DNA from: Salmonella phage vB_SenS-3
Sequence record: OR896822.1
Direction: 5' to 3' (one strand)
DNA length: 64,000 bases
A program made the translations under genes and the position numbers. The notes beneath the pieces are model-generated. The model made no database searches, was not told where the DNA came from, and was given only the letters and a program-made list of their open reading frames with translations. Of the stretch, positions 5,268-60,375 are shown piece after piece. The first letter of the stretch is position 1. Each line of letters begins with the position of its first letter.

Positions 5268-7598
5268 ATGAGCCATCGCATCGAAAAAGTAATTAAACGT
5301 GACGGTACTGTTCAGGACTTTGCTCCTGAAAAACTCAATGATTGGGCTGCATGGGCATGTAAAGATACTGACGTAAGTTGGTCTGCCGTAGTTATGGCTG
5401 CCCTGAAAAATCTACCCAAAGGTGTTGTAGACTCCGATACACTCCAAGATGTGTTAATTAAAGCCGCTGAAGGTCTTATCAAAGACAACCCAGCATATGA
5501 TACTGTAGCAAAGGAATTACGTCTTGCGCAGATGCGTAAACGCCTATATGATTCCTTTGAACCTCCTTCTCTGCGTTTCTTCCACGATCATATGATTCGT
5601 GTTGGCGCCTGGGAAGACATGAGTGCATGGATTAGCGATGATCAGTTTGATGCTCTGAATCAAGTTATTGATCATGATCGCGATCGTTTATTCACCAGTG
5701 GTGGACTGAAACAGTTCTTCGACAAGTATTCCCGTCGTAATATTGCAACTGGTGAAATTTATGAAACCCCGCAGTTTGCCTACATGGGTATGGCAATGGC
5801 GATGTTATCTCAACCTAACTGGACAATTCTCGATGCAATCGACCTCTACAACGCAATGTCACTCCATAAAATCAACGTGCCGACTCCACCTCTCGTGGGT
5901 CTTAGGAGCAGCGACCGCGGTTTTGCTTCTTGTTGTCTTGTTGATAGTACTGATACCCTCGATTCAATCGACACAGCCGAGCACATCGTCTTCAAAATGG
6001 TCGCAGCCAGAGCGGGAATCGGGTATCATCTTGAAAGCCGATCAATTGCTGATCCGGTGCGAAATGGGGCATTCCCGCATTCCGGAAAACTGCCATATTA
6101 TCGACACATTGACCGATCAGTAAAAGCTAACACTCAGCAAACCCGTGGTGGTTCTGCTACTGTGTCTTACCCATACTTCGATCCTGAAATCATTCAGTTG
6201 ATGCAGGTTAAGCAGCAACGTGCTACAGACGAGAATAAAATCGATAAGATGGATTACTCTCTGAGCTTTAACAACCTTCTGTTAAAACGTTACCTGAAAA
6301 ATGAAGATATTACGCTAATGTCCTACTTCTACGCACCAGAAGTTCATGAAGCGTTTTATGGCGAAGATGAGGCTAAGTTTGAAGAAATCTACGTGGCAGC
6401 GGAGAAACGTGTGGCATCTCTTACAAAGATCGACCACGAAGGAAAAACAATTCCAGCAGCTCCTAGAATCTCTGCAAAAGAAATCCTAGATACTTGGTTA
6501 CGTATCCGTATGGAAACAGGGCGTATGTATGCTCATCACATTGGTGAATCTAACCGTCATGGTAACTTCCTTGACCCGATTCGTATGACCAACCTTTGTG
6601 TTGAAATTACTCAGCCAACCCGTCCATTCCATCACATTACGGAGCTGTATAAGACCCAAGATCAGTTAGACGATATGCGTCCAGAAGATATTGGTGAAGT
6701 ATCTCTGTGTAACTTAGGTGGTGTTGTACTAGGTCGTATGGAATCTCTGGCTGAATGGGAGAAAACTTGCTACATTCTTCTGAAATTCGTTGATACAATC
6801 ATCGAGATTCAGGATTACCCATTCCCAACTATGGAGTACACGGCTAAGAAACGTCGTAACGTTGGTATTGGTCTGATGAACGCAGCAGGTGCAATGGCAG
6901 CAGAAGGTTTGGCTTACGAAGGTGTTGAAGCCCGTAACTGGATTCACCGTGAAGCTGAAAAGCTGTCCTACTTCCTACATAAAGCCTCTGTACGTCTGGC
7001 TAAAGAACAAGGTGCATGTGACTGGTTTAATCGTACTAAGCCTTCGCAAGGAACTCTGGTAATCGACACGTACAAGAAAACTGTTGATGAACTGGTAACT
7101 GTAGGTCTAGAAATGGATTGGGAATCTCTGCGTGCAGATATTCTGAAATATGGTATGCGCAACTCTGTTCTGACTGCTCAGATGCCAGGTGAAAGTTCCT
7201 CTGTACTGCTAGGTGTTACTAACTCTATCGAACCGCCCCGTAAGATCGTATCTATCAAGGGTAGTGCAGTGAATAAAGTAATTGCAATTGCTCCAGGTGC
7301 AACTGATTGGGATACATTAATGAGCTATAAACTGGCTTATGATGTAGATCGTATCGAGTGGATCAAATGGGTAGCAACCATGCAGAAATTATTCAGCCAG
7401 TCTATCAGTACGAATATGTACTATGACTACACCAAGTTCGAGAATGAAATCATTCCCGGCCCAGTAGTAGTTCGTGACTTTATGACTGCTGTTAAGTACG
7501 GTTGGAAAACTTGGTACTACGCTAACTTCAACACTGAAAATGGTGGTGGAGCTGGTGAAGAAGCAGCAGGTTGTGCATCAGGTGGTTGTAACCTATAA
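5268..7598 (+). CDS. nrdA: ribonucleoside-diphosphate reductase large subunit (class Ia)
   Basis: ATP-cone-like N-terminus (IEKVIKRDG), catalytic-core NxC/E motifs; C-terminal CxxC tail; start set at ATG 5268 with AGGAAA RBS. Confidence 0.9.
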   Translation: MSHRIEKVIKRDGTVQDFAPEKLNDWAAWACKDTDVSWSAVVMAALKNLPKGVVDSDTLQDVLIKAAEGLIKDNPAYDTVAKELRLAQMRKRLYDSFEPPSLRFFHDHMIRVGAWEDMSAWISDDQFDALNQVIDHDRDRLFTSGGLKQFFDKYSRRNIATGEIYETPQFAYMGMAMAMLSQPNWTILDAIDLYNAMSLHKINVPTPPLVGLRSSDRGFASCCLVDSTDTLDSIDTAEHIVFKMVAARAGIGYHLESRSIADPVRNGAFPHSGKLPYYRHIDRSVKANTQQTRGGSATVSYPYFDPEIIQLMQVKQQRATDENKIDKMDYSLSFNNLLLKRYLKNEDITLMSYFYAPEVHEAFYGEDEAKFEEIYVAAEKRVASLTKIDHEGKTIPAAPRISAKEILDTWLRIRMETGRMYAHHIGESNRHGNFLDPIRMTNLCVEITQPTRPFHHITELYKTQDQLDDMRPEDIGEVSLCNLGGVVLGRMESLAEWEKTCYILLKFVDTIIEIQDYPFPTMEYTAKKRRNVGIGLMNAAGAMAAEGLAYEGVEARNWIHREAEKLSYFLHKASVRLAKEQGACDWFNRTKPSQGTLVIDTYKKTVDELVTVGLEMDWESLRADILKYGMRNSVLTAQMPGESSSVLLGVTNSIEPPRKIVSIKGSAVNKVIAIAPGATDWDTLMSYKLAYDVDRIEWIKWVATMQKLFSQSISTNMYYDYTKFENEIIPGPVVVRDFMTAVKYGWKTWYYANFNTENGGGAGEEAAGCASGGCNL

Positions 7599-7705
7599 TA
7601 AAAACAAGGAGATCTTCGGGTCTCCTTTTTTCTTTGAAATTTTACTTGCTAATCTCTACCAGATTTGCTATAATATTCCTGAAATAGTGAGAAAGAGGAA
7701 AATCA

Positions 7706-8851
7706 ATGACTACTTTACTAAACCTGAATTGGGATCATACTAACGCTGACCTTTTCCTGGGCGATTCTCTTGGTATCGCAGATTACGTTCGTGTAGCACA
7801 TCCTGAACTTGAGCGTCTAGCACTTCTGCAACGTTCTCAATTTTGGACTGAAACTGAAATCAGTCTGGAAGCTGATAAGAAACAATGGCCAAACCTCCCG
7901 CGTGATATCCAGGAAATTACTCTCCTGAACTTAGCATGGCAAACTCAAACAGATTCTTTCATTAGTCGTGCTCCTGAGGCAGCTATTATGCCACTTGTAA
8001 GCCGTCCTGAATTGGAAGGTATGCTCAAGCAGTGGAGCTACTTCGAAGATCTACATAGCCGTGCGTATAGTAACATTATTCGTAACGTTCTGACTGACCC
8101 AGCAGAATTTATTGATTCTGTAACTAAAAACCAAGAAGCATTTGCACGTATCGCAGATTCTGTTGAACTGTTTGATGAATTGTATCTGTTAGGTCAGTAT
8201 TTCCTTGCAGTACGTGATCATCGTGGTGATAATACTTATCCAGAAACTGAGTTCCCTGAAGTTAAACGTGAAACTCAGGCTAAACTGTTAGACGCTTACT
8301 TTGCAATCTACGGTCTGGAAGCAATGCAGTTCTACGCATCCTTTGCATGTACCTTTGCTCTAGCAGAGAACGATATTCTGCAAGGTATTGCTAAGAACCT
8401 GCAATTAATCGCTAAAGATGAAGCTCTACATACTCAAATGTCTAAAGCTATCATCCAGATTATGTTCCAGCAGTTTGATAAAGATCTGGTAGATGAAGCA
8501 TTAGCTAAAGCACCAGCACAACTCCTAAAAACTCTGAAAACTGAGATTGAATGGGGCCACTTTATCTTTAAAGGCCGCAGTCTGATTGGTTTGAACGCAG
8601 AATTGCTTGAAGAATACCTTTACTTTGTAGGACGTAACGCATTTATGCACATTGGTGTAGAATGGCCAAGCCACTTACCTGTAATTACTAAGAACCCTAT
8701 TCCGTGGATTATGAACTGGTTGGATACTACATCTTTACAACCTGCTCCACAAGAGATTCAGATTGGTGCAGCGTACCGTGTAGGTCAAGTAACTGAAACC
8801 TCTGCTGATACTCTGAAAGATCTTGGCAACGAATTTGAGGATATGTTCTAA
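7706..8851 (+). CDS. nrdB: ribonucleoside-diphosphate reductase small subunit
   Basis: 381 aa directly after nrdA; ferritin-like diiron E/H motifs; acidic C-terminus. Confidence 0.9.
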   Translation: MTTLLNLNWDHTNADLFLGDSLGIADYVRVAHPELERLALLQRSQFWTETEISLEADKKQWPNLPRDIQEITLLNLAWQTQTDSFISRAPEAAIMPLVSRPELEGMLKQWSYFEDLHSRAYSNIIRNVLTDPAEFIDSVTKNQEAFARIADSVELFDELYLLGQYFLAVRDHRGDNTYPETEFPEVKRETQAKLLDAYFAIYGLEAMQFYASFACTFALAENDILQGIAKNLQLIAKDEALHTQMSKAIIQIMFQQFDKDLVDEALAKAPAQLLKTLKTEIEWGHFIFKGRSLIGLNAELLEEYLYFVGRNAFMHIGVEWPSHLPVITKNPIPWIMNWLDTTSLQPAPQEIQIGAAYRVGQVTETSADTLKDLGNEFEDMF

Positions 8852-9381
8852 TGATAGCAGCAATCTATGCAACTGGGCCGAATGGGGAGTTCGGCCTCAA
8901 TGGTAAGCTCCCCTGGGGTTCTTTCAAAGAAGAACTAGATATCTTCTATGCTACATTGGATTCTCTGGCACCTGACAATATTATTGTAGGAGCAGGAACT
9001 TGGTTAGCATTCCCTGAGACTCTGCAAAAAAGAATACTAGGAGATTCTGACCTATTTATTTATGCAAATAGACCACTACCGAACTCTATAAGATCAGCTA
9101 CACGCATAAGCAACATTGGATACCGTCTGCCTGATTTTCTCAAGGAAGAGGTAACTGTAGTATTAGGGGGAGCAACTCTGCTTCTTGAAATGTATGTCAA
9201 AAATCATCTAGATATGGCGTATATCTCTACTGTTACTTCAGCCACACCATTATCTGCTGATGTACATCTGCATCATCATATTACTTTAACTAATTCAATG
9301 GCAACTAGAATGGACTATGTGGCAGGACAGAATGCAGATAAAACGCTTTCATTCTTACAAGAATTGGTGATATTTAAATGA
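8851..9381 (+). CDS. dihydrofolate reductase-like protein
   Basis: 176 aa; N-terminal IAAIYATG...LPW resembles DHFR; sits between nrdB and thyA. Confidence 0.65.
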
Positions 9382-10232
9382 AGCAATATATTGAAACTGG
9401 AAAACGTATTCTTGAAGAGGGTGTATGGGTAACGAATCCTAGAACAGGGGTTCGTTGCCTAACCATTATTGATGCAGACTTTACCTTTAACGTAGGAGCA
9501 GGAGAACTGCCGCTAGTAACTACTCGTAAAGCATTTGCTAAACAAGCAATAATGGAAATGATCGGATATCTACGTGGGTACGACTCAGCAGCACAATTCC
9601 GCGCTATTGGTGTTAATACATGGAATGCTAATGCAAATGAAAATATTGCCTGGCTAGGTAATCCATTCCGTAAAGGCGAGGATGATATGGGACGAGTCTA
9701 TGGTGTTCAAGGACGTCATTGGACTAATTCTGATGGTATGGTATTTGATCAGTTAGCCAAAGTCTACCATAATTTGAAAAGAGGGATTGACGATCGTGGA
9801 GAAATTTTAACTTTTTGGAACCCTGGGGAATTTCGTAAAGGATGCCTACGTCCGTGTATGCATACCCATCAATTCTCTATTTTAGGTGATACACTATACC
9901 TAAACTCTTTCCAGAGGTCTAATGATTTCTTGCTGGGCCAAGTATTTAATATGGTGCAATGCTATGCACTTCTAGCTATTATGGCACAGATTACAGGTCT
10001 TAAGCCAGGTATTGCTCGTCAAAAGATTATTAATCTTCATATCTATGAAGATCAGTATAATGTTCTGATGGAGCACAAGCAATTCGATCGTGAACCTTTT
10101 GCACCTCCTACTTTAGAAATCAATCCAAATATTAGAACTTTGGATGATGTATTAACGTGGGTAAGTAAGGATGATTTTACTGTTCGTGGCTATGAACACC
10201 ATCCTGCTATTGCATATCCATTTACGGTGTAA
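9378..10232 (+). CDS. thyA: thymidylate synthase
   Basis: 284 aa; active-site [10 protein letters not shown] matches the ThyA PCH..QF signature. Confidence 0.85.
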
Positions 10233-48419: not shown

Positions 48420-49301
48420 ATGTATAACTTTAAAGATAAACTAAGACAAAATGCTGGTAAAGGAAAAGCTAAAGAGAACAATAATATTCCTAGTGCTAAA
48501 ATATTACCTTTTCCTGAACTAACACAGGAAGAAAAAGATAAACTAGCATTTATGTTCGATGCACTTATAGGATTAAGTGGACGCCTATATTCCACTCTTA
48601 GTATTAATGAGAAACGTCTAGTAGAGATGTTCTGCAAACGTTATCAAGTTACTTCAAAAGGTAACTCTTATAAAGAAGGTGAAAAAGCATTCACAGTCTT
48701 AAAAATCAGTGCGTATGCACATCGTTTCTTAGTTTATGGATTACAGATGGAATACTTCACCCTCCCACCATTTAAATCATTCCATATCTTTGAGGATGAA
48801 CGAATGAATATTGATGATCTTTATGGAGATACGTACAAATATTCAGGAAGCCCATTCCATGATGCATTAAGAAGCTACCCTACTAGTTACCTACCAGTTA
48901 GAGCATCACAAGGCAAAGCTAGCATCTTTGCTGTATACTCAGGATCTAAAGCATCTGATCTAGAAACTTATATATTTAAAGAGCGTAAATCTGCAATTCC
49001 AGATGAAGCATTATATAATAATCCACTTCTTCCAGAAGAACCGGAGAAAATTGATGTAACTCCCCCAACCCCATCCGAATCTCAATATTTAGTCTATGAA
49101 AAACAAGTTAAGTTGTCTCTAGACATTGGGTTGGTTACACCGCTTGCTGCAGCATTCATAAATAAGTATCTAGAAATTCCTGACGAGTTCCATGCACGTT
49201 ATAACACGAATATTCAGATCACAGATGAACTAGTTGCATTAGCAAAAGATACACCTACTGACACTGAGGCGTATCAAAAAGCATACCAAGAGTTACTGTA
49301 A
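48420..49301 (+). CDS. hypothetical protein
   Basis: 293-aa ORF, last + strand early-type gene before repeat region. Confidence 0.5.
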   Translation: MYNFKDKLRQNAGKGKAKENNNIPSAKILPFPELTQEEKDKLAFMFDALIGLSGRLYSTLSINEKRLVEMFCKRYQVTSKGNSYKEGEKAFTVLKISAYAHRFLVYGLQMEYFTLPPFKSFHIFEDERMNIDDLYGDTYKYSGSPFHDALRSYPTSYLPVRASQGKASIFAVYSGSKASDLETYIFKERKSAIPDEALYNNPLLPEEPEKIDVTPPTPSESQYLVYEKQVKLSLDIGLVTPLAAAFINKYLEIPDEFHARYNTNIQITDELVALAKDTPTDTEAYQKAYQELL

Positions 49302-49310
49302 GATCCTGCA

Positions 49311-49340
49311 AGTCTCGGTGCACAATACCTGTACCGAGAC
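49311..49340 (+). terminator. hairpin after last early gene
   Basis: GTCTCGGT...ACCGAGAC 8-bp stem. Confidence 0.45.
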
Positions 49341-49829
49341 TCAAATACAAACTCTCGTTGACAGATAACTAAATGTATGTTATCATAACTCTATGAGTTA
49401 ATAAAATTAACCATTTAGAGTTGCCACACAGAAGGTGTGGTGGTTCAGGAATCTTAAATTACTGACTTGTAGCGTAGGTTACGGAGCGACAGGACAAGTC
49501 AACAGGTAATTTAATAAAGATTACTAGAAACATCACGAGACCTTCTGGCGGGGGCAAAGCTCTATATGAGAACCCTGGGGGATCTTATACTTATATAAAA
49601 ACTAATACTGTTGAATAGATAAATTAACGTTCAAGATGATACACTCGGTTGCCGCTCATCTGCTAGGATGGCACAACACTTTCTTCTAGACTCCTAAGTT
49701 TCTAGGAGAACTCTCGTCAACTCAGGCGGTTTTCATTGTTCCTAGAAACTCTAGCAATAGGCGGTTAATACAGGGCGGTTATAGGGAGGGCGGTTATTTC
49801 TAGGAGTCATTTTTTGAAAACACATTTCT

Positions 49830-50445
49830 GGAGATTGCTATCGGATTTGCACATTATGTTTCTAGAAATTTATGGTCGGATTTGCACAATTGCCTAAGTT
49901 TTTAGGAACATATAATCTCCCGAAAATAGCAGCATTATTTCGGGCCGAAGGCCCATGATTGCCTGAGTTTTTAGAGCCACAGGAATTTTCACTTGTCAAG
50001 CTATTTTGCCCCATTTTGCTAATAAAATTTCGCTTTATCTCCCCCAATCTCAATTCTAGCCAAAACATCCCGCATTATCCCCAAAAACGCAGCAAACCGG
50101 TGCTAAAGCACCATCACCGCTGCTCCTTCCGTAGTTACTCCCAAAATCTCATCGGATTCGCACTTCTCCCCAAACCCACACAATCACACACCCTCCAATC
50201 GAAGTCACAAAAATCTTGTCGGATTCGCACACCTTAACACTTGTCGGTTTTGCACATATTCTAGTAAATCCAGCTGGATTGCATCGCAGTTGCGGATTGC
50301 TAGAGTTTTTAGGAAAATTCATTGTCGGATTCGCACACTATAAAAATATTTGCCATCGGATTTGCACACTACCAAAAATTGTCGGATTCGCACATGCACG
50401 CTGGCACGTAATCCGTGGGGGCAAATGTCGGATTTGCACAAAAGC
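49830..50445. repeat. iteron array: about 9-10 copies of TCGGATT(C/T)GCACA plus TTTCTAGGAG-like and GGCGGTTA repeats
   Basis: Copies near 49843, 49876, 50146, 50220, 50245, 50326, 50353, 50379, 50428; motif resembles a degenerate DnaA box (ATTTGCACA). Confidence 0.8.
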
Positions 50446-50464
50446 GCAGGGCAAATAGAAAATG

Positions 50465-50640
50465 CCCTGCCTGCCGAAATGCGAATGATAATGAGATTGA
50501 TTCGCATTTGAGAAGTTGAATGCGAATGATAATGATTCGCGTTTAGAAAGGGGAATGAGAATGGTTATCCTTTACAGAGTTGAATGCGAATGAGTTGCGT
50601 AATGAGAATGATTCGCATTTAGAAAGGGAAGTGAGAAACA
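50465..50640. repeat. cluster of GAATGCGAATGA / ATTCGCATT inverted and direct repeats
   Basis: At least four TGAATGCGAATGA-like units alternating with ATTCGCATTT/ATTCGCGTTT. Confidence 0.75.
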
Positions 50641-50652
50641 CTATTATTTAAG

Positions 50653-50661
50653 TTATCCACA
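50653..50661 (+). promoter_or_regulatory. consensus DnaA box TTATCCACA
   Basis: Exact 9-mer; TTATCAACA variants follow at 50715-50740. Confidence 0.5.
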
Positions 50662-50742
50662 GGTTTATTAACAGCACGATCTGACTTGACAAAATCCTAG
50701 TGATTTTGAGGCGTTATCAACAGACTTATCAACAGGTTATTC

Positions 50743-50762
50743 TACTGTATATTTATACAGTA
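50743..50762. repeat. 20-bp perfect palindrome TACTGTATATTTATACAGTA (core also at 54516)
   Basis: Self-complementary; CTGTATATTTATACAG core recurs at 54516-54531. Confidence 0.8.
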
Positions 50763-50792
50763 TTACTGCGTAGTGAATAACTCTAATATAGC

Positions 50793-50822
50793 TCTAAAAC
50801 GCTCTGTAACTCATTCTAAGCG
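50793..50822 (+). repeat. 30-bp direct repeat copy A (TCTAAAACGCTCTGTAACTCATTCTAAGCG)
   Basis: 29/30 identical to 54942-54971, same orientation. Confidence 0.8.
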
Positions 50823-50907
50823 ATTTAATTTTGGAGGAGGTATTTTAATAGGGGGAATTTGAGGAAGGCCAGAAAAAGCGGGGCCAGATAGTTGCACCCC
50901 GTTATTA

Positions 50908-51102
50908 TTAGTCTGGTAGTCGATGTGTGATCTTTTCGCTTTCGCCGTAGGAGTCTACCAAATGTTGATAGTAACCATCGTTATCATAAATCACTTTATC
51001 ATAATCGCCACGCTCCACCGCTTGCCGATTTTCCAGCGTATCAGGCACAAAGAAAGTATCAACGGTAACAGTAGTTTTAGTTACAACAATTTTATCACTC
51101 AT
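50908..51102 (-). CDS. hypothetical protein
   Basis: 64-aa ORF, minus-strand block. Confidence 0.3.
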   Translation of the reverse strand: MSDKIVVTKTTVTVDTFFVPDTLENRQAVERGDYDKVIYDNDGYYQHLVDSYGESEKITHRLPD

Positions 51103-51232
51103 AACGCCATCGCTCCTAGAATGAGAATGATTATCAATATCATTGTAAAGCCATTACCAAATCGTAAACGCTGGGAATGTTTCCCAGCGGTATTATTAGA
51201 TTTATGGCTTTGTGTTTTTCGCCACCAGCTAT

Positions 51233-51445
51233 TCACGGTTTTAAATTCTCTATAGTTAATTTTGCGCGAATAGTGATTCCATATAATTCGCCTCCCTTGT
51301 TTCTTACATCAGGTAGCCAGTCCCACAATTCAGGGTATCCGCTTAAAATTCCTAGCGATGCAAGATTAGCAATAAAACCGGCTATAGTAACCGCTTCCAG
51401 TGAAATAGTTACACGATTATTAATAACTAAAGTAAACTTTTTCAT
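51233..51445 (-). CDS. hypothetical protein
   Basis: 70-aa ORF, minus-strand block. Confidence 0.35.
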   Translation of the reverse strand: MKKFTLVINNRVTISLEAVTIAGFIANLASLGILSGYPELWDWLPDVRNKGGELYGITIRAKLTIENLKP

Positions 51446-51786
51446 TGCGCCACCTTTCGAAACGCTGTTTCGATACTTTCAGCGGTTGATTGAATATACG
51501 CGCCTTTCATAATCAGGCGCTCTGTACACACTTTGCGGAAAATGTCAATAAATTCATTTTCATTTTCCGCTATTAACGCTTCCCCCATAACCTGAACGTC
51601 ACAAGACCCAAAAGTTAAAAATTGAAATGCTAGTTCACGGGCGACAACGGCAGAAATTTTATAATGTGCTTTGCCCTCATAGATATTAACCACGCCTTTA
51701 TAAACTGGTGAAAGCTGATTTAAATAGTTTGCTAATAATGCCGGACGGCAATTAGTAATAAAGCGATTGCCCTCATAAATTACCAT
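51442..51786 (-). CDS. hypothetical protein
   Basis: 114-aa ORF, ATGA-type overlap with downstream ORF. Confidence 0.4.
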   Translation of the reverse strand: MVIYEGNRFITNCRPALLANYLNQLSPVYKGVVNIYEGKAHYKISAVVARELAFQFLTFGSCDVQVMGEALIAENENEFIDIFRKVCTERLIMKGAYIQSTAESIETAFRKVAQ

Positions 51787-51909
51787 CTGCCAACCTCCCT
51801 AGCAAATAGCCAAAACAAATCGAATAAACGCCTAACAGTGCAGGATCACTTTTAAAGTAGGTAGCAATAAAGCCACCAGCAGCACCGAGCAAAATAGAAA
51901 ATAAAGTTT

Positions 51910-52122
51910 TCATAATACCCCACGAAACGCAGCGTAAAAGGTGGCAAAGTGTTTAACCGTTTCGGCTACCAAATTGCCGCGCTTGTCAAATTTCTTTTCT
52001 GTAACACGGAAAGCGTTTTTGTTGCGTGCTACATATTCGATTTTACAATCTGGACGCTCGAACGTGTTAACATCCACCAGCTTAAAACCTTTGGAACGGG
52101 CAAGGGAAACATTCTTTAACAT
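51910..52122 (-). CDS. hypothetical protein
   Basis: 70-aa ORF. Confidence 0.35.
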   Translation of the reverse strand: MLKNVSLARSKGFKLVDVNTFERPDCKIEYVARNKNAFRVTEKKFDKRGNLVAETVKHFATFYAAFRGVL

Positions 52123-52124
52123 TT

Positions 52125-52274
52125 TTATTCCCCTTTACCAGTCATACAGCCTAACAAGTAAGAAAACCCCGCGATACCTGCTCCGATAATAACCACGTGA
52201 ACGCCGAAAGCTATTACAAACAGCGATAAAATAGCGCCCAAGATACTAGCCAGAATAGATCGAAAAATAACCAT
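52125..52274 (-). CDS. hypothetical small membrane protein
   Basis: 49-codon ORF with AGGAGG RBS; hydrophobic; below ORF-track cutoff. Confidence 0.3.
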   Translation of the reverse strand: MVIFRSILASILGAILSLFVIAFGVHVVIIGAGIAGFSYLLGCMTGKGE

Positions 52275-52381
52275 TTTAACGCCTCCTAGAAATTAGGGAA
52301 AATTTTCAGTCCACCGTTTCGGTGTAAAGGCATTATAACAAAAAAGGCCGCCGATTAGGGCGACCTTTACAAAACTTTACA

Positions 52382-52876
52382 TTAGACTATTTCTAGTGCT
52401 TCCACGCCGAAACAGCGTTTTAATTCTTTCTGTAAAACGGCATATTCATCCCAACGGGAATTATCAGGAATATAAACAAGCTGTTTTAGTCGATTTGCAT
52501 ATAATAACGCCTTGTTACCAATTATTTCCGCGCCACCGTGTTTAATAATTAGTTTCATAACGGTATTAATAGGATCGCCGCCATTTACATAAGTACCGGA
52601 CTTACTCAATTGATAATGATAAAGACTCGCATATACATTATCATTTTCAATCCATTCCCCTGTTTCTTCATCTTCTTCCCCATCGCTACCGAAACGAGAA
52701 GCATTATCATATGCGTGTTCGTTTGCGAAAGCGTCCAGATCACAGCCAGCGGGAACAAAATGTTCCTCCGTCCAGCCTTCCCCACAATAGCCAGTGTGAC
52801 AATCAACTAAAACGATCATATCGTGTTTAGCTTCATTCACACTTTCTAGAGAAAAGCCATATTTTTCTTCTGACAT
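52382..52876 (-). CDS. hypothetical acidic protein
   Basis: 164 aa with Asp/Glu-rich stretch SDGEEDEETGEWIEND. Confidence 0.45.
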   Translation of the reverse strand: MSEEKYGFSLESVNEAKHDMIVLVDCHTGYCGEGWTEEHFVPAGCDLDAFANEHAYDNASRFGSDGEEDEETGEWIENDNVYASLYHYQLSKSGTYVNGGDPINTVMKLIIKHGGAEIIGNKALLYANRLKQLVYIPDNSRWDEYAVLQKELKRCFGVEALEIV

Positions 52877-52889
52877 AACTAGACTCCTA

Positions 52890-53198
52890 TTAATTAGCAG
52901 GGAAATAAAGAGAATTTGCTACACTGTAAAATCCTTTATTTAAGAAAATTACGTCATCACGGACTATTTCATCCATTCCATAATCCAGCAAAGTTTCGTC
53001 TACAAAAATACATAGCCAGCCATAACCACGATCAAAGAAAGCATGATAATTATTAGCGCTTTCTACATGTTCCCATAAAAAGGGACGGCCTTGTTTTTCC
53101 CATATAGGAATATTGCTTTGATCGTCCGAATAATTAACATGGGGGCTATTCGGCATTTTTTCGGCTAATTGCGTCAACATGATTTGATTCAGTTGCAT
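52890..53198 (-). CDS. hypothetical protein
   Basis: 102-aa ORF. Confidence 0.45.
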   Translation of the reverse strand: MQLNQIMLTQLAEKMPNSPHVNYSDDQSNIPIWEKQGRPFLWEHVESANNYHAFFDRGYGWLCIFVDETLLDYGMDEIVRDDVIFLNKGFYSVANSLYFPAN

Positions 53199-53264
53199 AA
53201 TAAGTAGTCTCCTAACAATTAACAGGGAAATAGTAAAGCGGGAAATAATCCCCGCTAGTAATTA

Positions 53265-54266
53265 TTACTCTGTTTCGGCGCTTTGGGTAAAGGTAGAAAT
53301 GTCAATGCCTTTTACCATTTCATCGATCATTTCAGCAATATTGAAACTCTGTACCATTTCCAGCATTGCCGCTTCCATTGCCGCGCCTGCTACCGCTTTC
53401 GCTTTCGCATTAGTCGGGGCGTACTGGTCAACCGCTACGCTTAACAGGTTAGCGATCACTACGCGACCGATCGGCGTATCGATATAACCTTTAATCATAA
53501 ACGGCGCTTTTTTCGCCGCTACTTTTGTGATTTGAGTCAGTGCAATTTTACCCGCTTCCAATTTAGCAGCGTTAACAACGGCGGATTTATTAGCGGCAAC
53601 GATAGAAGATACTTTAGACATAATATTTCCTTTATTTTCAGTAGTTTGCGCATTTGCGCTTGAAGTTTGAGATTGTACAGCCTGTTTTGTTACATTGTCA
53701 AGCGATTTTAATGTAAATCCAGCGTTTGCAACGTTTGATTCATTCCCATACTCTAAATAATCGTTAGGAATCAACATGTTACCGCTAGCGCGTTCAAAAC
53801 ACAATACGCCAGTTGTTTCGATTGCGTCACTATCCGCACCTTTATAACTGGATGATAATTCACGCCAGATACTATTTAATAACGATCCGACACTATCCAG
53901 TCTGATATTATTTACTTTTGTTGCTGTTACCTGCTCTTTTTCTTGCACGTTATATAATCGCGCAATGTAACCACTATGAGACTCACTATAACCAACAATG
54001 ATAAAATCAATATCAGTTCCCCGACTATTACGGAAAATGTGATAATCACGGTTGAAAATTACTAGCGCCCTTGTCTGGTCTAGTAATAGCGTGAAATCAT
54101 CGACTGAATAATGAGTATCATTATTATCTAAAATTTCATCGTGAATCTTTTCAACCATTGCCGCCGTATGTTGTACGCTTGCCACACTACTACCATCTAG
54201 CAGGTTGCGCAAACTACCCTTAATAATAGTGGCGTTTGCTGGTACTGCAATTCTTACAGTAGACAT
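53265..54266 (-). CDS. hypothetical protein
   Basis: 333-aa ORF, first gene of minus-strand block, Ala/Lys-rich C-terminal half. Confidence 0.5.
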   Translation of the reverse strand: MSTVRIAVPANATIIKGSLRNLLDGSSVASVQHTAAMVEKIHDEILDNNDTHYSVDDFTLLLDQTRALVIFNRDYHIFRNSRGTDIDFIIVGYSESHSGYIARLYNVQEKEQVTATKVNNIRLDSVGSLLNSIWRELSSSYKGADSDAIETTGVLCFERASGNMLIPNDYLEYGNESNVANAGFTLKSLDNVTKQAVQSQTSSANAQTTENKGNIMSKVSSIVAANKSAVVNAAKLEAGKIALTQITKVAAKKAPFMIKGYIDTPIGRVVIANLLSVAVDQYAPTNAKAKAVAGAAMEAAMLEMVQSFNIAEMIDEMVKGIDISTFTQSAETE

Positions 54267-54515
54267 TTCTTTGTCTCCCTCGTTAATCGGTGAGTGAATG
54301 ATATAGATAATTGTTCGCTAGGGGCAAGAAAAAAGAAAAGGTTTTTTATTCCTTGCCTACTGCCCGTTTTTATGATAATCGCGCGTTTTCTATTTCTAGC
54401 TCTCTGTAAGCGTACACAAGGCTTTATTATAATAAGGGTAGCAGTGAGAAAACGCCGTGTAGCGCGTTCTAGGCCGCTTAAATTTGATTGCGGTTGTTAC
54501 TGCTACCATTCTACC

Positions 54516-54531
54516 CTGTATATTTATACAG
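54516..54531. repeat. palindrome core CTGTATATTTATACAG (second copy)
   Basis: Identical core to 50745-50760. Confidence 0.8.
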
Positions 54532-54553
54532 TAGGATAACCTGTATATAAGTC

Positions 54554-54611
54554 TGTGGATAAGTCACCAAAACGTCGCCTATTGCGTCAAGTTATTTTGT
54601 GCTGTGGATAA
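54554..54611 (-). promoter_or_regulatory. two DnaA boxes in minus orientation (TGTGGATAA at 54554 and 54603)
   Basis: Reverse complements of TTATCCACA; a third AGTGGATAA at 54888. Confidence 0.5.
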
Positions 54612-54941
54612 CTTTGTGCATAACCTAAATGATAGTGGTTCTCACTTAGCCCGATAGTTTCTCATAGTTATTATTTCTCATTAATTTATGTGTATATTAT
54701 ATATTATGAAATAGTTAGTTGGCTAATAGATTTTTAGGGTATTAATAGTCTGCTAACTGTTTCGGCTGTTACAATCCACCAGCGTGATTATCGTCCTAGC
54801 GATTATTAGTCTGCTAATGCTCTGATGCACGTCCAGACTTATTTGTCAATGAAAAATAACAGCAGAAAATACTTTTTTGAAAAATCAAGTGGATAACTCA
54901 TTAAATTTCATTTTTGCTTTTTGTATAAGTTATTAACAGGG

Positions 54942-54971
54942 TCTAAAACGCTCTGTAACGCATTCTAAGCG
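54942..54971 (+). repeat. 30-bp direct repeat copy B (TCTAAAACGCTCTGTAACGCATTCTAAGCG)
   Basis: 29/30 identical to 50793-50822. Confidence 0.8.
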
Positions 54972-55374: not shown

Positions 55375-55584
55375 ATGAAACAAACGCTTTTGATCACTGG
55401 CAAGCCTATCAAGTCGCTTGATAGCAGAACAAAAAATTTGTTGACAGTAGCGCAACGATCTGTAAAATACAGATTCAAGCAATACAAGAAAGGCAAGCAA
55501 CAAGGGCTGGAAATGGTGTGGCGTAATATAATGATTGATTTATATAACTCCCATCAAATCGAAAAAAGTTTAAAAAACGATTGA
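55375..55584 (+). CDS. hypothetical small basic protein enclosed by 26-bp inverted repeats
   Basis: 69-aa ORF, GGAATCGACGAT then ATG; flanked by IR arms. Confidence 0.3.
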   Translation: MKQTLLITGKPIKSLDSRTKNLLTVAQRSVKYRFKQYKKGKQQGLEMVWRNIMIDLYNSHQIEKSLKND

Positions 55585-56166: not shown

Positions 56167-56583
56167 ATGTCTAACGTTAAAACCGAAAAAACCGCAAAAT
56201 TCGCTTGGAACGAAGAAAACACTGAAAAAGCTGTTTCTATGTATTCTGAAATGGTCGCTAAAAGCGGAATTGAATTTGCTAACAGTGACGGCCTGAAAGA
56301 AATTGCCGCCGCCGTTGGTGCTGCTAGTCCGGTGTCTGTACGTTCTAAACTGACAAGCGCAAAAGCCTATCAGAAAAGCGATAAACCTCGCAAAGTTGGC
56401 GGCGGTAGCTCAATTCGTAAAGCTCACTATGTGCGTGTTATTGCAAAACATGCCATCGACGCTGGCGTTATTAAAGACGCTGATGACTTGGCAAGCCTTG
56501 AAAGTGCTAAACTGGAAACACTGGACGCCGTAGCGCAATTATTAGGCGTAGCGGAGGAAGTAAAACAGGCCGCAGGTGAATAA
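56167..56583 (+). CDS. hypothetical protein
   Basis: 138-aa ORF, Ala-rich; hairpin AGCGGGG AATATT CCCCGCT follows. Confidence 0.45.
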   Translation: MSNVKTEKTAKFAWNEENTEKAVSMYSEMVAKSGIEFANSDGLKEIAAAVGAASPVSVRSKLTSAKAYQKSDKPRKVGGGSSIRKAHYVRVIAKHAIDAGVIKDADDLASLESAKLETLDAVAQLLGVAEEVKQAAGE

Positions 56584-56969: not shown

Positions 56970-58634
56970 ATGAATATTTCCGCAGAAAAACAAGCTCAAA
57001 TTTTGAAAATGGCCGCTGATTTCAATTTCTACGGTAAGCGTTTACGCGCTACTAAGCTGGAAGTTTGCGACGATATTTCAAAAGCTGTTTATGATACGCC
57101 GAAACATTCAACCGCAATTTGTGACTGGCTGGAAGCAAACAAGCCAGCGAAACCGAAAGCGGCAAAAGCTGAAAAGGCGATTAAAAATGATGATCGCCCC
57201 GAGGCGGCGGGAATTGTTTCTAGCACCGTTGAGCAATGGGAAGTTAAATCCGGTCGCCGTTTTATTCTAACGTCGATTCAGAATAATACTTTCCCGCATA
57301 AAAACTTTTTAGCAAGTCTGGAAAAATTCGCTGAATATTGCGGCGCTGAATTACTTGTTAGCAAATTCATTTACAACAAAAACGGATTTCAGAACGGGGA
57401 AGGGGCAAACGGTATTAAATACGATCCCGCATTTGATAAATATGTTTGTGATAAAAACGTATTTTTAAATAACCGCCGCTTTGCCTTCATGGCTGAAATT
57501 AACGTTTTACCAACGGCAGATTATCCGCTTTCAGGATTCGCAGAAACCGCCACGGCTTTAAATATCGAAGGTCTGGCAATTGGTCACGCAAAAATTACCG
57601 CTGAAAGTGTTCCCGCGCTTAAAGGTGAAGTAGTGCGCCGTATGTATTCAACCGGAACGGCTACGCTTAAAAACTACATTCAGCAGAAAGCAGGACAAAA
57701 GGCCGAGGCTTTACATAACTACGGCGCTTTGCTGGTAGAATTTGACGACGGCGGAGAATTTTTCGTGCGCCAGCTTGAAACAATGGACGAAAGCGGAATG
57801 TTCTATGATCTGAATATTTGCGCCACTCCTAGCGGTTGCAAAGAAATTACCGGACACATTTTAGGCTTACAATATGGCGATATTCACGCCGAAAAATTAG
57901 ATGATGAATGCGCCGTCGCTTCATGGGCTAGTGAAAATTCATTGCTTGATATTCTTAAACCGAAATATCAGTTTATTCATGATGTGCATGATTTTACATC
58001 GCGTAACCATCACAACCGCGCTAGTGGTGTATTCCTTGCTAAACAGTACGCCGCAGGACGTGATAAAGTTATTGATGATCTCATTGATACCGGTCGCGTG
58101 TTGGAATCTATGGAACGTGAATTTAGTCAAACAATCATTGTGGAATCCAACCATGATTTAGCTCTTTCACGCTGGCTTGATGATCGTAACGCAAACATTA
58201 AGGACGATCCCGCAAACGCCGAGCTATATCACAGCCTAAACGCTGCGATTTACGCCGCAATTGCAAAACAAGATGATACCTTTAACGTATTGGATTACGC
58301 GCTTAGAAACGTTGCAGGTTGCGAATTTAACGCTATTTTCCTGACTACTGACCAGTCATTTAAAATCGCTGGCATTGAATGTGGCGTACATGGTCACAAC
58401 GGCATTAATGGCAGTCGGGGCAATCCTAAACAGTTTAAAAAGTTGGGACGCCTTAACACTGGTCACACTCACACGGCTAGCATATACGGCGGCGTTTATA
58501 CCGCTGGCGTGGCGGGGTCGCTTGATATGGGCTATAACGTGGGCGCGTCAAGCTGGACGCAAACGCATTTAATTACCTATGCAAACGGGCAACGTACTTT
58601 GATTGATTTCAAAAACGGTAAATTCTTTGCATAA
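56970..58634 (+). CDS. A1: pre-early A1-like protein (metallophosphoesterase domain)
   Basis: 554 aa; GDIHAE, HDVHD, GHNG, GHTH metallophosphatase motifs in C-terminal half; size matches T5 A1 as recalled. Confidence 0.65.
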   Translation: MNISAEKQAQILKMAADFNFYGKRLRATKLEVCDDISKAVYDTPKHSTAICDWLEANKPAKPKAAKAEKAIKNDDRPEAAGIVSSTVEQWEVKSGRRFILTSIQNNTFPHKNFLASLEKFAEYCGAELLVSKFIYNKNGFQNGEGANGIKYDPAFDKYVCDKNVFLNNRRFAFMAEINVLPTADYPLSGFAETATALNIEGLAIGHAKITAESVPALKGEVVRRMYSTGTATLKNYIQQKAGQKAEALHNYGALLVEFDDGGEFFVRQLETMDESGMFYDLNICATPSGCKEITGHILGLQYGDIHAEKLDDECAVASWASENSLLDILKPKYQFIHDVHDFTSRNHHNRASGVFLAKQYAAGRDKVIDDLIDTGRVLESMEREFSQTIIVESNHDLALSRWLDDRNANIKDDPANAELYHSLNAAIYAAIAKQDDTFNVLDYALRNVAGCEFNAIFLTTDQSFKIAGIECGVHGHNGINGSRGNPKQFKKLGRLNTGHTHTASIYGGVYTAGVAGSLDMGYNVGASSWTQTHLITYANGQRTLIDFKNGKFFA

Positions 58635-59477: not shown

Positions 59478-60212
59478 ATGAATCAAGTCAACATGAATAT
59501 TACCCGCACTTTCTCGCATATTTCCCGCGTTATGATTTGGGATTTAGACGGGACAATCATTAATTCATTCCATCGTGTAGCGCCTTGCTTTGATGATAAC
59601 GGGAATTTAGATTTAAATAAGTATTCCCGCGAAGCCTGCAAACATGAATTAATTATGCAGGATTCCTTATTACCATTGGTTGAATATATGCGCCAATGTA
59701 TGAATGATCCCAATACCTTAAACCTTATTTGTACCGCTCGCTTAATGGGTAAATCTGATTATTATTTCTTGCGTAAACAAAGTCTAAGAGGACGCGGAAA
59801 TAGTAATATTCGCGTATTTTCCCGCGATACTTTGCATAAATACTTTGAAGCGGATAAGGTTAGCGAAATATACCACAGCAAAGATGCTGTATATAAATCT
59901 TATTACTTTGAACTGTTTAAACAGCTATATCCTAACGCTGATTTTACGATGATTGATGATCATAAAGGTGTATTATCGGCGGCGGCAAGTGCTGGATTTA
60001 AAACGCTGGACGCTCAAGCCGTTAATGATATCCTATCAATCGGCGTAACATTGATCGGTGAAACCTTTATTGATGAATCACTTGATGATGATAACGATTA
60101 TCAATTCCTAGCCGAACGTTTAAAAATGTGTTGGGAAGGTATGACCGAGGAAGAACGAGCGGAATATAGTACCACACCGCAACAATTCATTGATAAATTA
60201 AAAGTCGCGTAA
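59478..60212 (+). CDS. dmp: 5'-deoxyribonucleotidase (HAD-like), dmp-like
   Basis: 244 aa; N-terminal WDLDGT HAD motif I; size matches T5 dmp as recalled. Confidence 0.65.
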   Translation: MNQVNMNITRTFSHISRVMIWDLDGTIINSFHRVAPCFDDNGNLDLNKYSREACKHELIMQDSLLPLVEYMRQCMNDPNTLNLICTARLMGKSDYYFLRKQSLRGRGNSNIRVFSRDTLHKYFEADKVSEIYHSKDAVYKSYYFELFKQLYPNADFTMIDDHKGVLSAAASAGFKTLDAQAVNDILSIGVTLIGETFIDESLDDDNDYQFLAERLKMCWEGMTEEERAEYSTTPQQFIDKLKVA

Positions 60213-60375
60213 TAATTAAAAATAAAATAGTCACACTGTGTTATCATCACATAGTGTGACTATTAGCTTGCTAAGTACCGGGGCGGTAATGAGACTCATT
60301 CTCATCTAGGGAACCTCTGGGCACACCTTCATGTGTAATCTTATGAAATTTCGAGAATTGGTAATTAGCGCTAAC

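What the first reader, a model, noticed from the sequence alone, without database searches (positions are those of the whole stretch)
50743..54971. Minus-strand gene block bracketed by matching repeat sets (palindrome, DnaA boxes, 30-bp direct repeat)
The only sizeable minus-strand block (50908-54266, about nine ORFs of unknown function including a 164-aa acidic protein) is bracketed by two regions sharing the palindrome core CTGTATATTTATACAG (50745 and 54516), DnaA boxes in mirrored orientation (50653 plus strand; 54554 and 54603 minus strand) and a 29/30-identical 30-bp direct repeat (50793 and 54942). This could mark a recombination-delimited cassette or a pair of regulatory regions recognised by the same protein.
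Basis: seen in the sequence. Interest (0 to 1): 0.7.

Follow-up and report, generated by a model that had tools for sequence, protein, structure and literature searches.

The report
Known T5-type injection-stop repeats, LexA-like
The two matching repeat sets are real, but they are the already published inverted repeats of the first-injected end of T5-like phage genomes; what I add is that their palindrome looks like a top-grade binding site for the host SOS repressor LexA, and that the gene block between them has been flipped in some related phages.

Summary
The window is Salmonella phage RA40 (T5-like, Epseptimavirus). The finding lies in its terminal-repeat, pre-early (first-step-transfer) region.

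The two flanks are arms of a 132-nt inverted repeat. They are orthologous to T5's published IRC-spacer-IRD and IRD'-spacer-IRC' (with palindrome D). The 30-bp repeat belongs to T5's IRB family. These elements have been described since 1987, and DnaA binding was proposed as the injection-stop mechanism in 2020. No function has been tested.

New here:
- The palindrome scores as an SOS (LexA) box, equal to or better than genuine E. coli boxes. It flanks the block in all 41 A1-linked loci examined.
- Each arm carries two "double DnaA boxes" with the 3-bp spacing that DnaA binds in vivo.
- The 30-mer is three phased 10-bp units, conserved even in Vibrio relatives.
- The block is inverted relative to A1 in My1-like and IME260-like phages.

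It is not a presence/absence cassette: none of 541 related records carries a deletion or inversion junction. A 2026 T5 deletion mutant, as I mapped it from its primers, lacks the block and the A2-side arm and is viable.

Verdict: a known element, with a modest new and testable hypothesis.

The parts
50143..50650 (.). Injection-stop-region direct repeats outside the left arm: TGTCGGATTCGCAC-type units (T5 'DRD') and 50-nt AATGAGAATGATTCGCATTT-type units (T5 'DRC/DRE'). The inner boundary of the terminal repeat maps to about 50,020-50,180.
   Evidence: families D1-D8; window 49157-50883 aligns to T5 11000-9208 at 81.6%; the T5 and saus132 repeat ends are projected onto the window from this alignment; T5 annotation
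50629..50760 (.). Left arm, on the injection-stop side: orthologue of T5 IRD'-spacer-IRC' (T5 9332-9462)
   Evidence: I1; 12-arm alignment
50653..50673 (+). Double DnaA box TTATCCACA-GGT-TTATTAACA
   Evidence: geometry as in PMC11317965
50714..50734 (+). Double DnaA box (variant boxes) TTATCAACA-GAC-TTATCAACA
   Evidence: Davison's 'DnaA*' boxes
50743..50762 (.). LexA-type SOS box TACTGTATATTTATACAGTA (T5 'palindrome D'); 19/20 to the consensus TACTG(TA)5CAGTA
   Evidence: 26.9 bits, above all 18 genuine E. coli boxes; conserved in relatives
50793..50822 (+). 30-bp iteron, copy a: three phased ~10-bp units TCTAAAACGC / TCTGTAACTC / ATTCTAAGCG, starting 33 bp inside the palindrome core
   Evidence: (D6)
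50908..54266 (-). Accessory pre-early gene block, 10 ORFs, listed in transcription order:
- 53265-54266, 333 aa: DUF7566, homologue of T5 gene 011/012.
- 52890-53198, 102 aa.
- 52382-52876, 164 aa: acidic.
- 52125-52274, 49 aa.
- 51910-52122, 70 aa: homologue of T5.015, the Ung-dependent nickase.
- 51773-51913, 46 aa.
- 51442-51786, 114 aa: homologue of T5 ORF016.
- 51233-51445, 70 aa.
- 51099-51236, 45 aa.
- 50908-51102, 64 aa.
   Evidence: T5 gene functions
52343..52368 (-). Intrinsic-terminator-like hairpin inside the block (10-pair stem followed by a T run). A second, weaker one lies at 53237-53256.
54298..54327 (-). Promoter-like site TTGCCC-18-TATCAT upstream of the 333-aa gene. It aligns with T5's annotated pre-early promoter P4 region; a promoter upstream of T5 gene 011 has been characterised experimentally.
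54446..54475 (-). 30-bp iteron, copy b: degenerate and inverted relative to copies a and c; orthologue of T5 IRB'
   Evidence: (D6, 67%)
54514..54533 (.). LexA-type SOS box CCCTGTATATTTATACAGTA
   Evidence: 22.2 bits; genuine boxes have a median of 19.3
54516..54647 (.). Right arm, on the A2 side: orthologue of T5 IRC-spacer-IRD (T5 6022-6152). It lies between the divergent pre-early promoters.
   Evidence: I1; (window 54503-54646 aligns to T5 6164-6022 at 78.6%)
54542..54562 (-). Double DnaA box TTATCCACA-GAC-TTATATACA
54603..54623 (-). Double DnaA box TTATGCACA-AAG-TTATCCACA (both boxes fit the consensus)
54876..54896 (-). A further, weaker double DnaA-like box between the right arm and iteron copy c
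54942..54971 (+). 30-bp iteron, copy c; orthologue of T5 IRB (T5 5285-5310)
   Evidence: (D6)

Best explanation
What it is (shown). The bracket is the conserved cis-acting architecture of the first-injected (pre-early, terminal-repeat) DNA of T5-like phages. It consists of two inverted copies of a ~130-bp module. Read from outside towards the block, each copy holds:
- a double DnaA box;
- a 40-bp gap containing CTTGAC;
- a second double DnaA box;
- GGTTAT;
- a 20-bp LexA-type SOS box;
- about 30 bp further in, a 30-bp triple iteron.

The left copy is the universal one and sits immediately before the injection-stop repeats. The right copy is an inverted duplicate lying in the divergent promoter region between the A2-A1-dmp operon and the accessory operon.

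The DNA between the copies is the accessory pre-early operon (host take-over genes, including the T5.015-type nickase). It is not a mobile cassette. Its content drifts, and the operon has been inverted relative to A1 in at least one lineage, as expected from recombination between the inverted arms.

How it most likely works (inferred, untested). The sites are near-optimal targets for two abundant host proteins that are present before any phage protein is made: DnaA, which binds as dimers on double boxes, and LexA. On entry they load onto the module and build a stable nucleoprotein block at the inner end of the first-step DNA. That block holds or anchors the DNA at the stop point, and it bars RNA polymerase leaving the accessory operon from running into the DNA that has not yet entered. 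A1 and A2 later relieve it.

The DnaA part of this was proposed by Davison. The LexA part is my addition.
For: Identity.
- The window is 100% identical to phage RA40, and 531 related records were found.
- The arms and the 30-mer align to T5's annotated IRC/IRD, IRD'/IRC', palindrome D and IRB/IRB'. These elements are described in Davison 2020.

LexA reading.
- Against a matrix built from 18 E. coli SOS boxes (PMC3009722), the two sites score 26.9 and 22.2 bits.
- Genuine boxes score a median of 19.3 and a maximum of 25.1 (leave-one-out).
- The next best site in the 64 kb scores 13.2. The best site per shuffle averages 12.3.
- The box is 19/20 identical to the E. coli istR-2/tisB box.
- A LexA-type box sits next to DnaA boxes in Klebsiella, Erwinia, Proteus, Pectobacterium and Vibrio relatives. 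Across them the centre varies while CTGTAT/ATACAG is kept.
- All 41 A1-linked loci have at least one box of 19 bits or more flanking the block. None of the 21 loci that hold the same protein domain but no A1 has one.

DnaA reading.
- There are 6 double boxes in the window against 0.70 expected, and 4 of them are in the arms.

Stop function.
- The left arm abuts the stop region.
- Davison cites a second first-step DNA band of ~5.8 kb, near the other arm.
- Phages that lack the right arm keep the left one.

Inversion. Homologues of the 333-aa and 164-aa proteins are co-directional with A1 in IME260-like and My1-like phages, but divergent from A1 in 30 Markadamsvirinae loci and in KEY and the Proteus-like phages.
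Against: - No binding or functional experiment exists for any of these sites. Papers from 2023 and 2026 say so.
- A T5 mutant is viable, with smaller plaques when combined with other deletions. By my mapping of its primers it lacks T5 5393-9081, that is the whole block and the A2-side arm. So the pairing, and one whole arm, are dispensable in the laboratory.
- T5-like phages are propagated on recA1 hosts such as DH5alpha (host field). LexA cleavage therefore cannot be required; at most LexA binding matters.
- The palindrome could equally be the site of a phage protein. A2 is a dimeric DNA-binding protein essential for the second transfer step.
- No convincing promoter overlaps the boxes. The only candidate is a 9/12 match, TTATCA-16-TATATT, at 50726-50753.
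- In vitro, T5 ejects its whole genome through its receptor without this stop (Davison's review of the literature).
Confidence: 0.55

Rival explanations
1. Transcriptional operators or insulators only. The modules regulate or wall off pre-early transcription. LexA and DnaA would act as repressors or roadblocks at the ends of the accessory operon and in the divergent promoter region, with no role in stopping DNA entry.
For: - The right arm sits between the divergent promoters: the P4-like site at 54298-54327 and rightward promoter-like sites from 54843 onwards.
- The inverted symmetry means a polymerase leaving the block on either side meets the sites in the same order and orientation.
- DnaA-box complexes are documented roadblocks to RNA polymerase.
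- A weak promoter-like match has its -35 in a DnaA box and its -10 in the LexA box.
Against: - No strong promoter overlaps either box.
- The operon already has intrinsic terminators (T5 palindrome C).
- Near-maximal site strength is unusual for a tunable operator.
- Deleting the right arm together with the block gives a viable phage.
Confidence: 0.25
2. The palindrome and/or the 30-bp iteron are sites for a phage protein, not for LexA. The most plausible candidate is A2, alone or with A1. In this reading they serve to restart transfer or to process the terminal repeats, and the likeness to an SOS box is incidental.
For: - A2 is a dimeric double-strand DNA-binding protein, essential for second-step transfer and conserved in every relative examined, including Vibrio phages at 38-42% identity.
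- The 30-mer matches no host-factor motif that I recognise, yet it is conserved in Vibrio relatives at 5-7 mismatches out of 30.
- Davison proposes that A1/A2 cleave at a palindrome.
Against: - The palindrome stays unchanged while A2 diverges to ~40% identity. This fits an invariant host protein at least as well.
- The variants actually seen are the ones genuine LexA boxes tolerate: CCAG or CTGG in one half-site, and an ATCC centre.
- The match to the LexA matrix exceeds that of real SOS boxes.
Confidence: 0.25
3. DnaA-dependent replication origin. Clusters of DnaA boxes next to AT-rich direct repeats would act as an oriC-like origin in each terminal repeat.
For: - Four double DnaA boxes lie in the two arms.
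- AT-rich repeats lie just outside both arms.
- Davison notes the resemblance to oriC.
Against: - Electron-microscopy mapping places T5 origins near the middle of the genome, and the replication genes are not yet in the cell at the first-step stage (Davison).
- One arm can be deleted.
- A LexA box has no role in known origins.
Confidence: 0.07
4. Mobile or excisable cassette. The block would be a transposon-like or recombinase-moved unit bounded by terminal inverted repeats, or excisable through the 30-bp direct repeat.
For: - Long inverted repeats plus a direct repeat bracket a variable gene set.
- The block occurs in both orientations across the family.
Against: - None of 541 records shows a deletion junction or an inversion junction.
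- No recombinase or transposase family is detected in the block proteins.
- No target-site duplication abuts the arms.
- The arms are present whatever lies between them, and one arm persists alone in some lineages.
Confidence: 0.03

Closest known systems
Bacteriophage T5 inverted repeats IRC-spacer-IRD and IRD'-spacer-IRC', with palindrome D and IRB/IRB' (Heusterspreute 1987; Wang 2005 annotation AY587007; Davison 2015, 2020)
   Same: Orthologous by alignment. They share the same position in the terminal repeat and the same 131-132-bp inverted pair around the variable ORF block. They also share the DnaA-box pairs 3 bp apart, the palindrome and the IRB-type repeat.
   Different: - RA40 lacks the HNH-endonuclease insertion that splits T5's repeat regions 1 and 2.
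- The block content differs: RA40 has 102-, 164-, 46-, 70- and 45-aa ORFs that T5 lacks.
- The published descriptions do not call palindrome D a LexA box (0 occurrences of 'LexA' or 'SOS').
- They describe the My1/IME260 blocks as replaced rather than inverted.
E. coli SOS boxes (LexA operators), e.g. istR-2/tisB, umuDC, sulA
   Same: A 20-bp TACTGT-N8-ACAGTA palindrome. It is 19/20 to the consensus and 19/20 to the istR-2/tisB box, and its matrix score is above that of genuine boxes.
   Different: It is not placed over a recognisable promoter. It lies in a virulent phage, next to DnaA boxes. Binding and SOS-dependence are untested.
Double DnaA boxes of the E. coli DnaA regulon, DARS2 and mioC (Stringer, Fitzgerald and Wade 2024), and the asnC-mioC DnaA roadblock (Schaefer and Messer 1988, 1989)
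   Same: Two 9-mers in the same orientation, 3 bp apart, with one box often imperfect. In E. coli such complexes can stop elongating RNA polymerase.
   Different: Here two double boxes start 61 bp apart in each arm, and the arms are duplicated in inverted orientation 3.7 kb apart. Which orientation blocks polymerase could not be checked, because the 1989 paper is not held.
Invertible segments bounded by inverted repeats (Hin/Gin/Cin switches; inverted-repeat-mediated inversions)
   Same: A gene block lies between inverted repeats and is found in both orientations among relatives.
   Different: There is no invertase gene. No flipped form occurs among 541 close relatives. Inversion here is a rare evolutionary event, not a switch.

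Membership tests
T5-family first-step-transfer inverted repeats (IRC/IRD pair) | Lies in the terminal-repeat, pre-early region of a genome encoding A1, A2 and dmp | tested here: met
   A1 at 56970-58634, A2 at 56167-56583; 244-aa ORF at 59478-60212, at the position of the rokbiter dmp gene; terminal-repeat ends projected to about 50,020-50,180 and about 60,220-60,335
T5-family first-step-transfer inverted repeats (IRC/IRD pair) | A ~131-bp inverted pair flanking the variable ORF block, alignable to the T5 elements | tested here: met
   I1 (132 nt, 76%); (78.6% and 81.6% to the orthologous T5 stretches)
T5-family first-step-transfer inverted repeats (IRC/IRD pair) | Two pairs of DnaA or variant DnaA boxes per arm, boxes 3 bp apart | tested here: met
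   definition from Davison 2020
T5-family first-step-transfer inverted repeats (IRC/IRD pair) | Acts as, or belongs to, the injection stop signal | not testable with these tools
   Two-step transfer has been shown only for T5 and BF23. The role of the repeats is untested.
LexA operator (SOS box) | CTGT-N8-ACAG palindrome with a matrix score in the range of genuine boxes | tested here: met
   (26.9 and 22.2 bits; genuine boxes median 19.3)
LexA operator (SOS box) | Overlaps or adjoins a promoter that it represses | tested here: inconclusive
   Only a 9/12 promoter-like match at 50726-50753. The P4-like promoter lies about 190 bp away from the right box.
LexA operator (SOS box) | Bound by LexA, with expression or function that is SOS-dependent | not testable with these tools
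   No experiment was found.
Double DnaA box | Two 9-mers close to TTWTNCACA, same orientation, spaced 2-3 bp apart | tested here: met
   (4 in the arms; 6 in the window against 0.70 expected); criterion
Mobile cassette / transposon | Encodes or is associated with a recombinase or transposase | tested here: not met
   (no such family among the block proteins)
Mobile cassette / transposon | Presence/absence polymorphism with junctions at the repeats; target-site duplication | tested here: not met
   (0 of 541 records); the bases flanking the arms are unrelated
Site-specific invertible switch | Invertase gene, and both orientations among close relatives or within a stock | tested here: not met
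   Opposite orientations occur only between distant lineages.
oriC-like DnaA-dependent origin | DnaA-box cluster plus an adjacent AT-rich unwinding element that fires replication | tested here: inconclusive
   Boxes are present and AT-rich repeats are adjacent. Initiation is not testable, and the literature places T5 origins elsewhere.

The most novel reading that the evidence does not exclude
Palindrome D of T5-like phages is a genuine, maximal-affinity LexA operator. Together with the adjacent double DnaA boxes, it lets pre-existing host LexA and DnaA assemble the plug or anchor that halts DNA entry after the first 8% of the genome. Host proteins would then be the long-sought injection stop factor. 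The nested inverted repeats have, in addition, repeatedly flipped the accessory anti-host operon during family evolution.
Probability: 0.2. Interest if true: 0.75.

Novelty: already known. Interest (0 to 1): 0.4.

Why it matters
How T5 stops injecting its DNA after 8% has been an open question for more than 50 years, and the repeats seen here are the only candidate signal.

Two readings are added here: the palindrome reads as a first-rate LexA site, and the DnaA boxes have exactly the paired geometry that DnaA binds in vivo. Together they name two concrete host proteins to test. Reverse-genetics tools for this region became available for T5 in 2026.

If LexA and DnaA prove irrelevant, the finding remains an ordinary orthologue of a published, annotated element.

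Tried and rejected
- **Rfam scan of 49.5-55.7 kb.** Only one sub-threshold hit, so no known RNA family.
- **Promoter and terminator scan.** No strong promoter over either palindrome. The conserved CTTGAC in the arm spacer has no usable -10 element in either direction.
- **Palindrome centre as an inversion marker.** I first took the asymmetric centre (ATTT versus AAAT) as a marker of a large inversion and as evidence that the two copies are direct. Wider sampling showed the centre is polymorphic among close relatives at the stop-side arm (15 ATTT to 7 AAAT). I dropped the argument.
- **Inner-flank similarity.** It suggested that the flanks are swapped between T5/RA40 and other genera. However, KEY and Proteus keep the RA40 operon orientation with the "swapped" flanks, so breakpoints cannot be mapped. 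I treat this evidence as ambiguous.
- **Flank-anchored scan of viral contigs** with TTATCNACAGGTTATNC. It mostly returned unrelated tandem DnaA boxes and gave no unbiased logo.
- **Sequence search of solved structures** for the 164-aa and 333-aa proteins and A2: nothing found.
- **Papers not held.** Davison 2015 and Schaefer and Messer 1989 could not be read. Whether LexA was ever mentioned there, and which DnaA-box orientation blocks polymerase, remain unchecked.
- **Transcription-start data.** No transcription-start-site data for T5 pre-early genes were found.

Full report
**Where we are.** The 4.8 kb around the finding is 100% identical to Salmonella phage RA40 (Epseptimavirus, Demerecviridae, T5-like), and 531 related phage records match it. 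The window runs in the reverse orientation of the standard T5 map.
- Downstream on the + strand lie A2 (56167-56583), A1 (56970-58634) and the dmp-sized gene at 59478-60212.
- The ends of the annotated terminal repeats of T5 and saus132 project onto about 50,020-50,180 (inner end) and about 60,220-60,335 (genome end).
- The finding therefore lies inside the ~10-kb terminal repeat, the DNA that enters the cell first.

**The observation.**
- The palindrome core sits at 50745 and 54516, the only two CTGT-N8-ACAG sites in 64 kb.
- Consensus DnaA boxes sit at 50653 (+), 54554 (-) and 54603 (-), the only three in the window.
- The 30-mer at 50793 and 54942 is 29/30 identical.
- The left arm is present in 546 records, so this is not chance.
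- The block has 10 ORFs, and it is not the only minus-strand coding stretch in the window.

**It is a published element.** The T5 record AY587007 annotates inverted repeats C and D (6022-6152), D' and C' (9332-9462), palindrome D (9330-9349, TACTGTATAAATATACAGTA) and inverted repeats B/B'. The window aligns to these stretches.

| Window element | T5 element |
|---|---|
| Right arm 54516-54647 | IRC-spacer-IRD |
| Left arm 50629-50760 | IRD'-spacer-IRC' |
| 30-mer copy c (54942) | IRB |
| 30-mer copy b (54446) | IRB' |
| 30-mer copy a (50793) | unannotated copy at T5 9270-9299 |

Davison's 2020 preprint describes the pair in 25 T5-like phages. It notes eight DnaA boxes in pairs 3 bp apart, stresses that the repeats are better conserved than the ORFs between them, and proposes that membrane-bound DnaA stops injection. 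Papers from 2023 and 2026 state that this remains untested.

**New point 1: the palindrome reads as a LexA box.**
- I built a matrix from the 18 SOS boxes tabulated in PMC3009722.
- The two sites score 26.9 and 22.2 bits. Genuine boxes score a median of 19.3 and a maximum of 25.1 in leave-one-out. The next best site in the window scores 13.2, and the best site per shuffle averages 12.3.
- The box differs by one base from the E. coli istR-2/tisB box.
- The same kind of box sits beside DnaA boxes in Klebsiella (IME260), Erwinia (KEY), Proteus, Pectobacterium (My1) and Vibrio relatives whose A1 is only 31-34% identical. CTGTAT/ATACAG is kept while the centre varies, and one copy uses the CCAG variant common in real SOS boxes.
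- In 62 viral-contig loci retrieved through the 333-aa protein, all 41 with A1 nearby have at least one box of 19 bits or more flanking the block. None of the 21 without A1 has one.
- "LexA" and "SOS" are absent from Davison 2020 and from every T5 paper I could search. I could not read the 1987, 2005 and 2015 papers.

[quoted passage not shown] It also shows that DnaA can block elongating polymerase. The window has six such pairs against 0.70 expected. Four are in the arms and a fifth lies at 54876-54896.

**New point 3: the 30-mer is a triple 10-bp iteron.** It reads TCTAAAACGC / TCTGTAACGC / ATTCTAAGCG.
- It is conserved with 5-7 mismatches out of 30 even in Vibrio phages.
- The usual layout is one copy about 30 bp inside each palindrome, inverted to each other, plus a third copy beyond the right arm.
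- Its binding partner is unknown. A2, the one known DNA-binding pre-early protein conserved family-wide, is my guess.

**The block.** It is the accessory pre-early operon.
- The 333-aa protein is DUF7566 and the homologue of T5 gene 011/012. The 70-aa protein is the T5.015-type Ung-dependent nickase. The 49-aa and 114-aa ORFs match T5 ORF014 and ORF016. The others have no known function.
- T5 genes 011, 013 and 015 are toxic to E. coli when expressed alone.
- Content varies between close relatives. Only 107 of 531 records cover at least 80% of the query, and saus132 lacks the 333-, 102- and 164-aa genes and the promoter region.

**Cassette test.**
- Synthetic junctions for deletion through the 30-bp repeat and for arm-to-arm inversion found no contiguous match in 541 records.
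- There is no recombinase gene and no target-site duplication.
- Across genera, however, the operon is flipped. It is co-directional with A1 in IME260-like and My1-like phages (six loci). It is divergent from A1 in 30 Markadamsvirinae loci, in KEY, in Proteus-like loci and in three loci that have only the stop-side box.
- On an A1 tree this needs at least one inversion, and most parsimoniously two.
- Breakpoints could not be mapped. The inner-flank evidence was ambiguous, and the palindrome centre proved polymorphic.

**Experimental constraint.** A 2026 preprint deleted "hegG to 017" in T5. Mapping its primers onto AY587007 places the deletion at about 5393-9081. That removes the block and the whole A2-side arm, while keeping palindrome D and IRD'-spacer-IRC'. 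The phage is viable, with smaller plaques when combined with other deletions. So the bracketing as such is dispensable. Only the stop-side module is universal, in agreement with the lineages that lack the other arm.

**Mechanism.**
- *Shown:* identity, site content, conservation, inversion across lineages, and dispensability of one arm.
- *Inferred:* LexA and DnaA, both present before infection, load onto near-optimal sites on the entering DNA and form a stable complex at the inner end of the first-step DNA.
- I favour a holding or anchoring role that doubles as a barrier to transcription running towards the DNA that has not yet entered, with A1/A2 undoing it. Supporting points are the position of the left arm next to the stop, and the old report of a second ~5.8-kb first-step band near the other arm.
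- Growth on recA1 hosts means LexA cleavage cannot be needed.
- A purely transcriptional role, or binding by A2 instead of LexA, are live rivals.

**Verdict.** The element is already known and annotated in T5. The cassette reading largely fails, while the "same protein" reading fits. The added value is a specific, cheap-to-test host-factor hypothesis (LexA plus DnaA dimers) and the recognition that the block has been inverted.

Noticed in passing
window 50745-50760 versus loci L133-L162 (stop-side palindrome): The 2-nt asymmetric centre of the palindrome (ATTT or AAAT) differs among phages that are more than 90% identical: 15 ATTT to 7 AAAT at the stop-side arm. It is almost fixed at the other arm. 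A recurrent TT<->AA flip suggests hairpin template-switching or arm-to-arm conversion.
   Followed up: partly
window ~50487; L001 position 1: The rokbiter record starts at about window 50487, inside the injection-stop repeats. The T5 and saus132 terminal-repeat ends project to about 50,020-50,180. The rokbiter 'end' may reflect the 7.9% nick site rather than the true terminus.
   Followed up: partly
window 52875-52907 and 53200-53232: A 33-nt repeat (85% identical) covers the ribosome-binding regions and starts of the 164-aa and 102-aa genes. It suggests a duplicated translation-initiation region.
   Followed up: no
window 55441-55468, inside ORF 55375-55584: The best promoter-like match in the region (TTGACA-16-TAAAAT, 11/12) lies inside the annotated 69-aa ORF, close to where T5's annotated pre-early promoters P1/P2 project. 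The ORF or its start may be mis-called.
   Followed up: no
L012 (saus132) versus window 52393-53258 and 53387-54379: This Epseptimavirus lacks the 164-, 102- and most of the 333-aa genes together with the P4-like promoter, yet keeps both arms. This is natural evidence that these genes are dispensable.
   Followed up: partly
loci L013-L132 (viral contigs): Tandem consensus DnaA boxes 2 bp apart (TTATCCACAGGTTATCCACA), often in arrays, occur in many unrelated viral contigs. They are probably phage origins.
   Followed up: no
loci L172-L194: The conserved C-terminal ~130 aa of the 333-aa protein (DUF7566: ...NK...AKLEAG...P.M..GY...) occurs in 21 viral-contig loci that have no A1 within 10 kb and no LexA-type boxes. 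The domain is therefore not restricted to T5-like phages.
   Followed up: no
window 51099-51236 (-): A 45-aa ORF with a GTG start, 97.8% conserved in rokbiter, is not annotated in the RA40 record.
   Followed up: no
L010 7351-7436 and 9884-9935; L011 450-545 and 3908-3955: In Vibrio T5-like phages the 10-bp iteron unit TCTAAAACGC lies directly against DnaA boxes and against half-degenerate copies of the same palindrome (CTGTATATTTATACAT, ATGTATATTTATACAG). The three motifs travel together, but with different spacing.
   Followed up: partly
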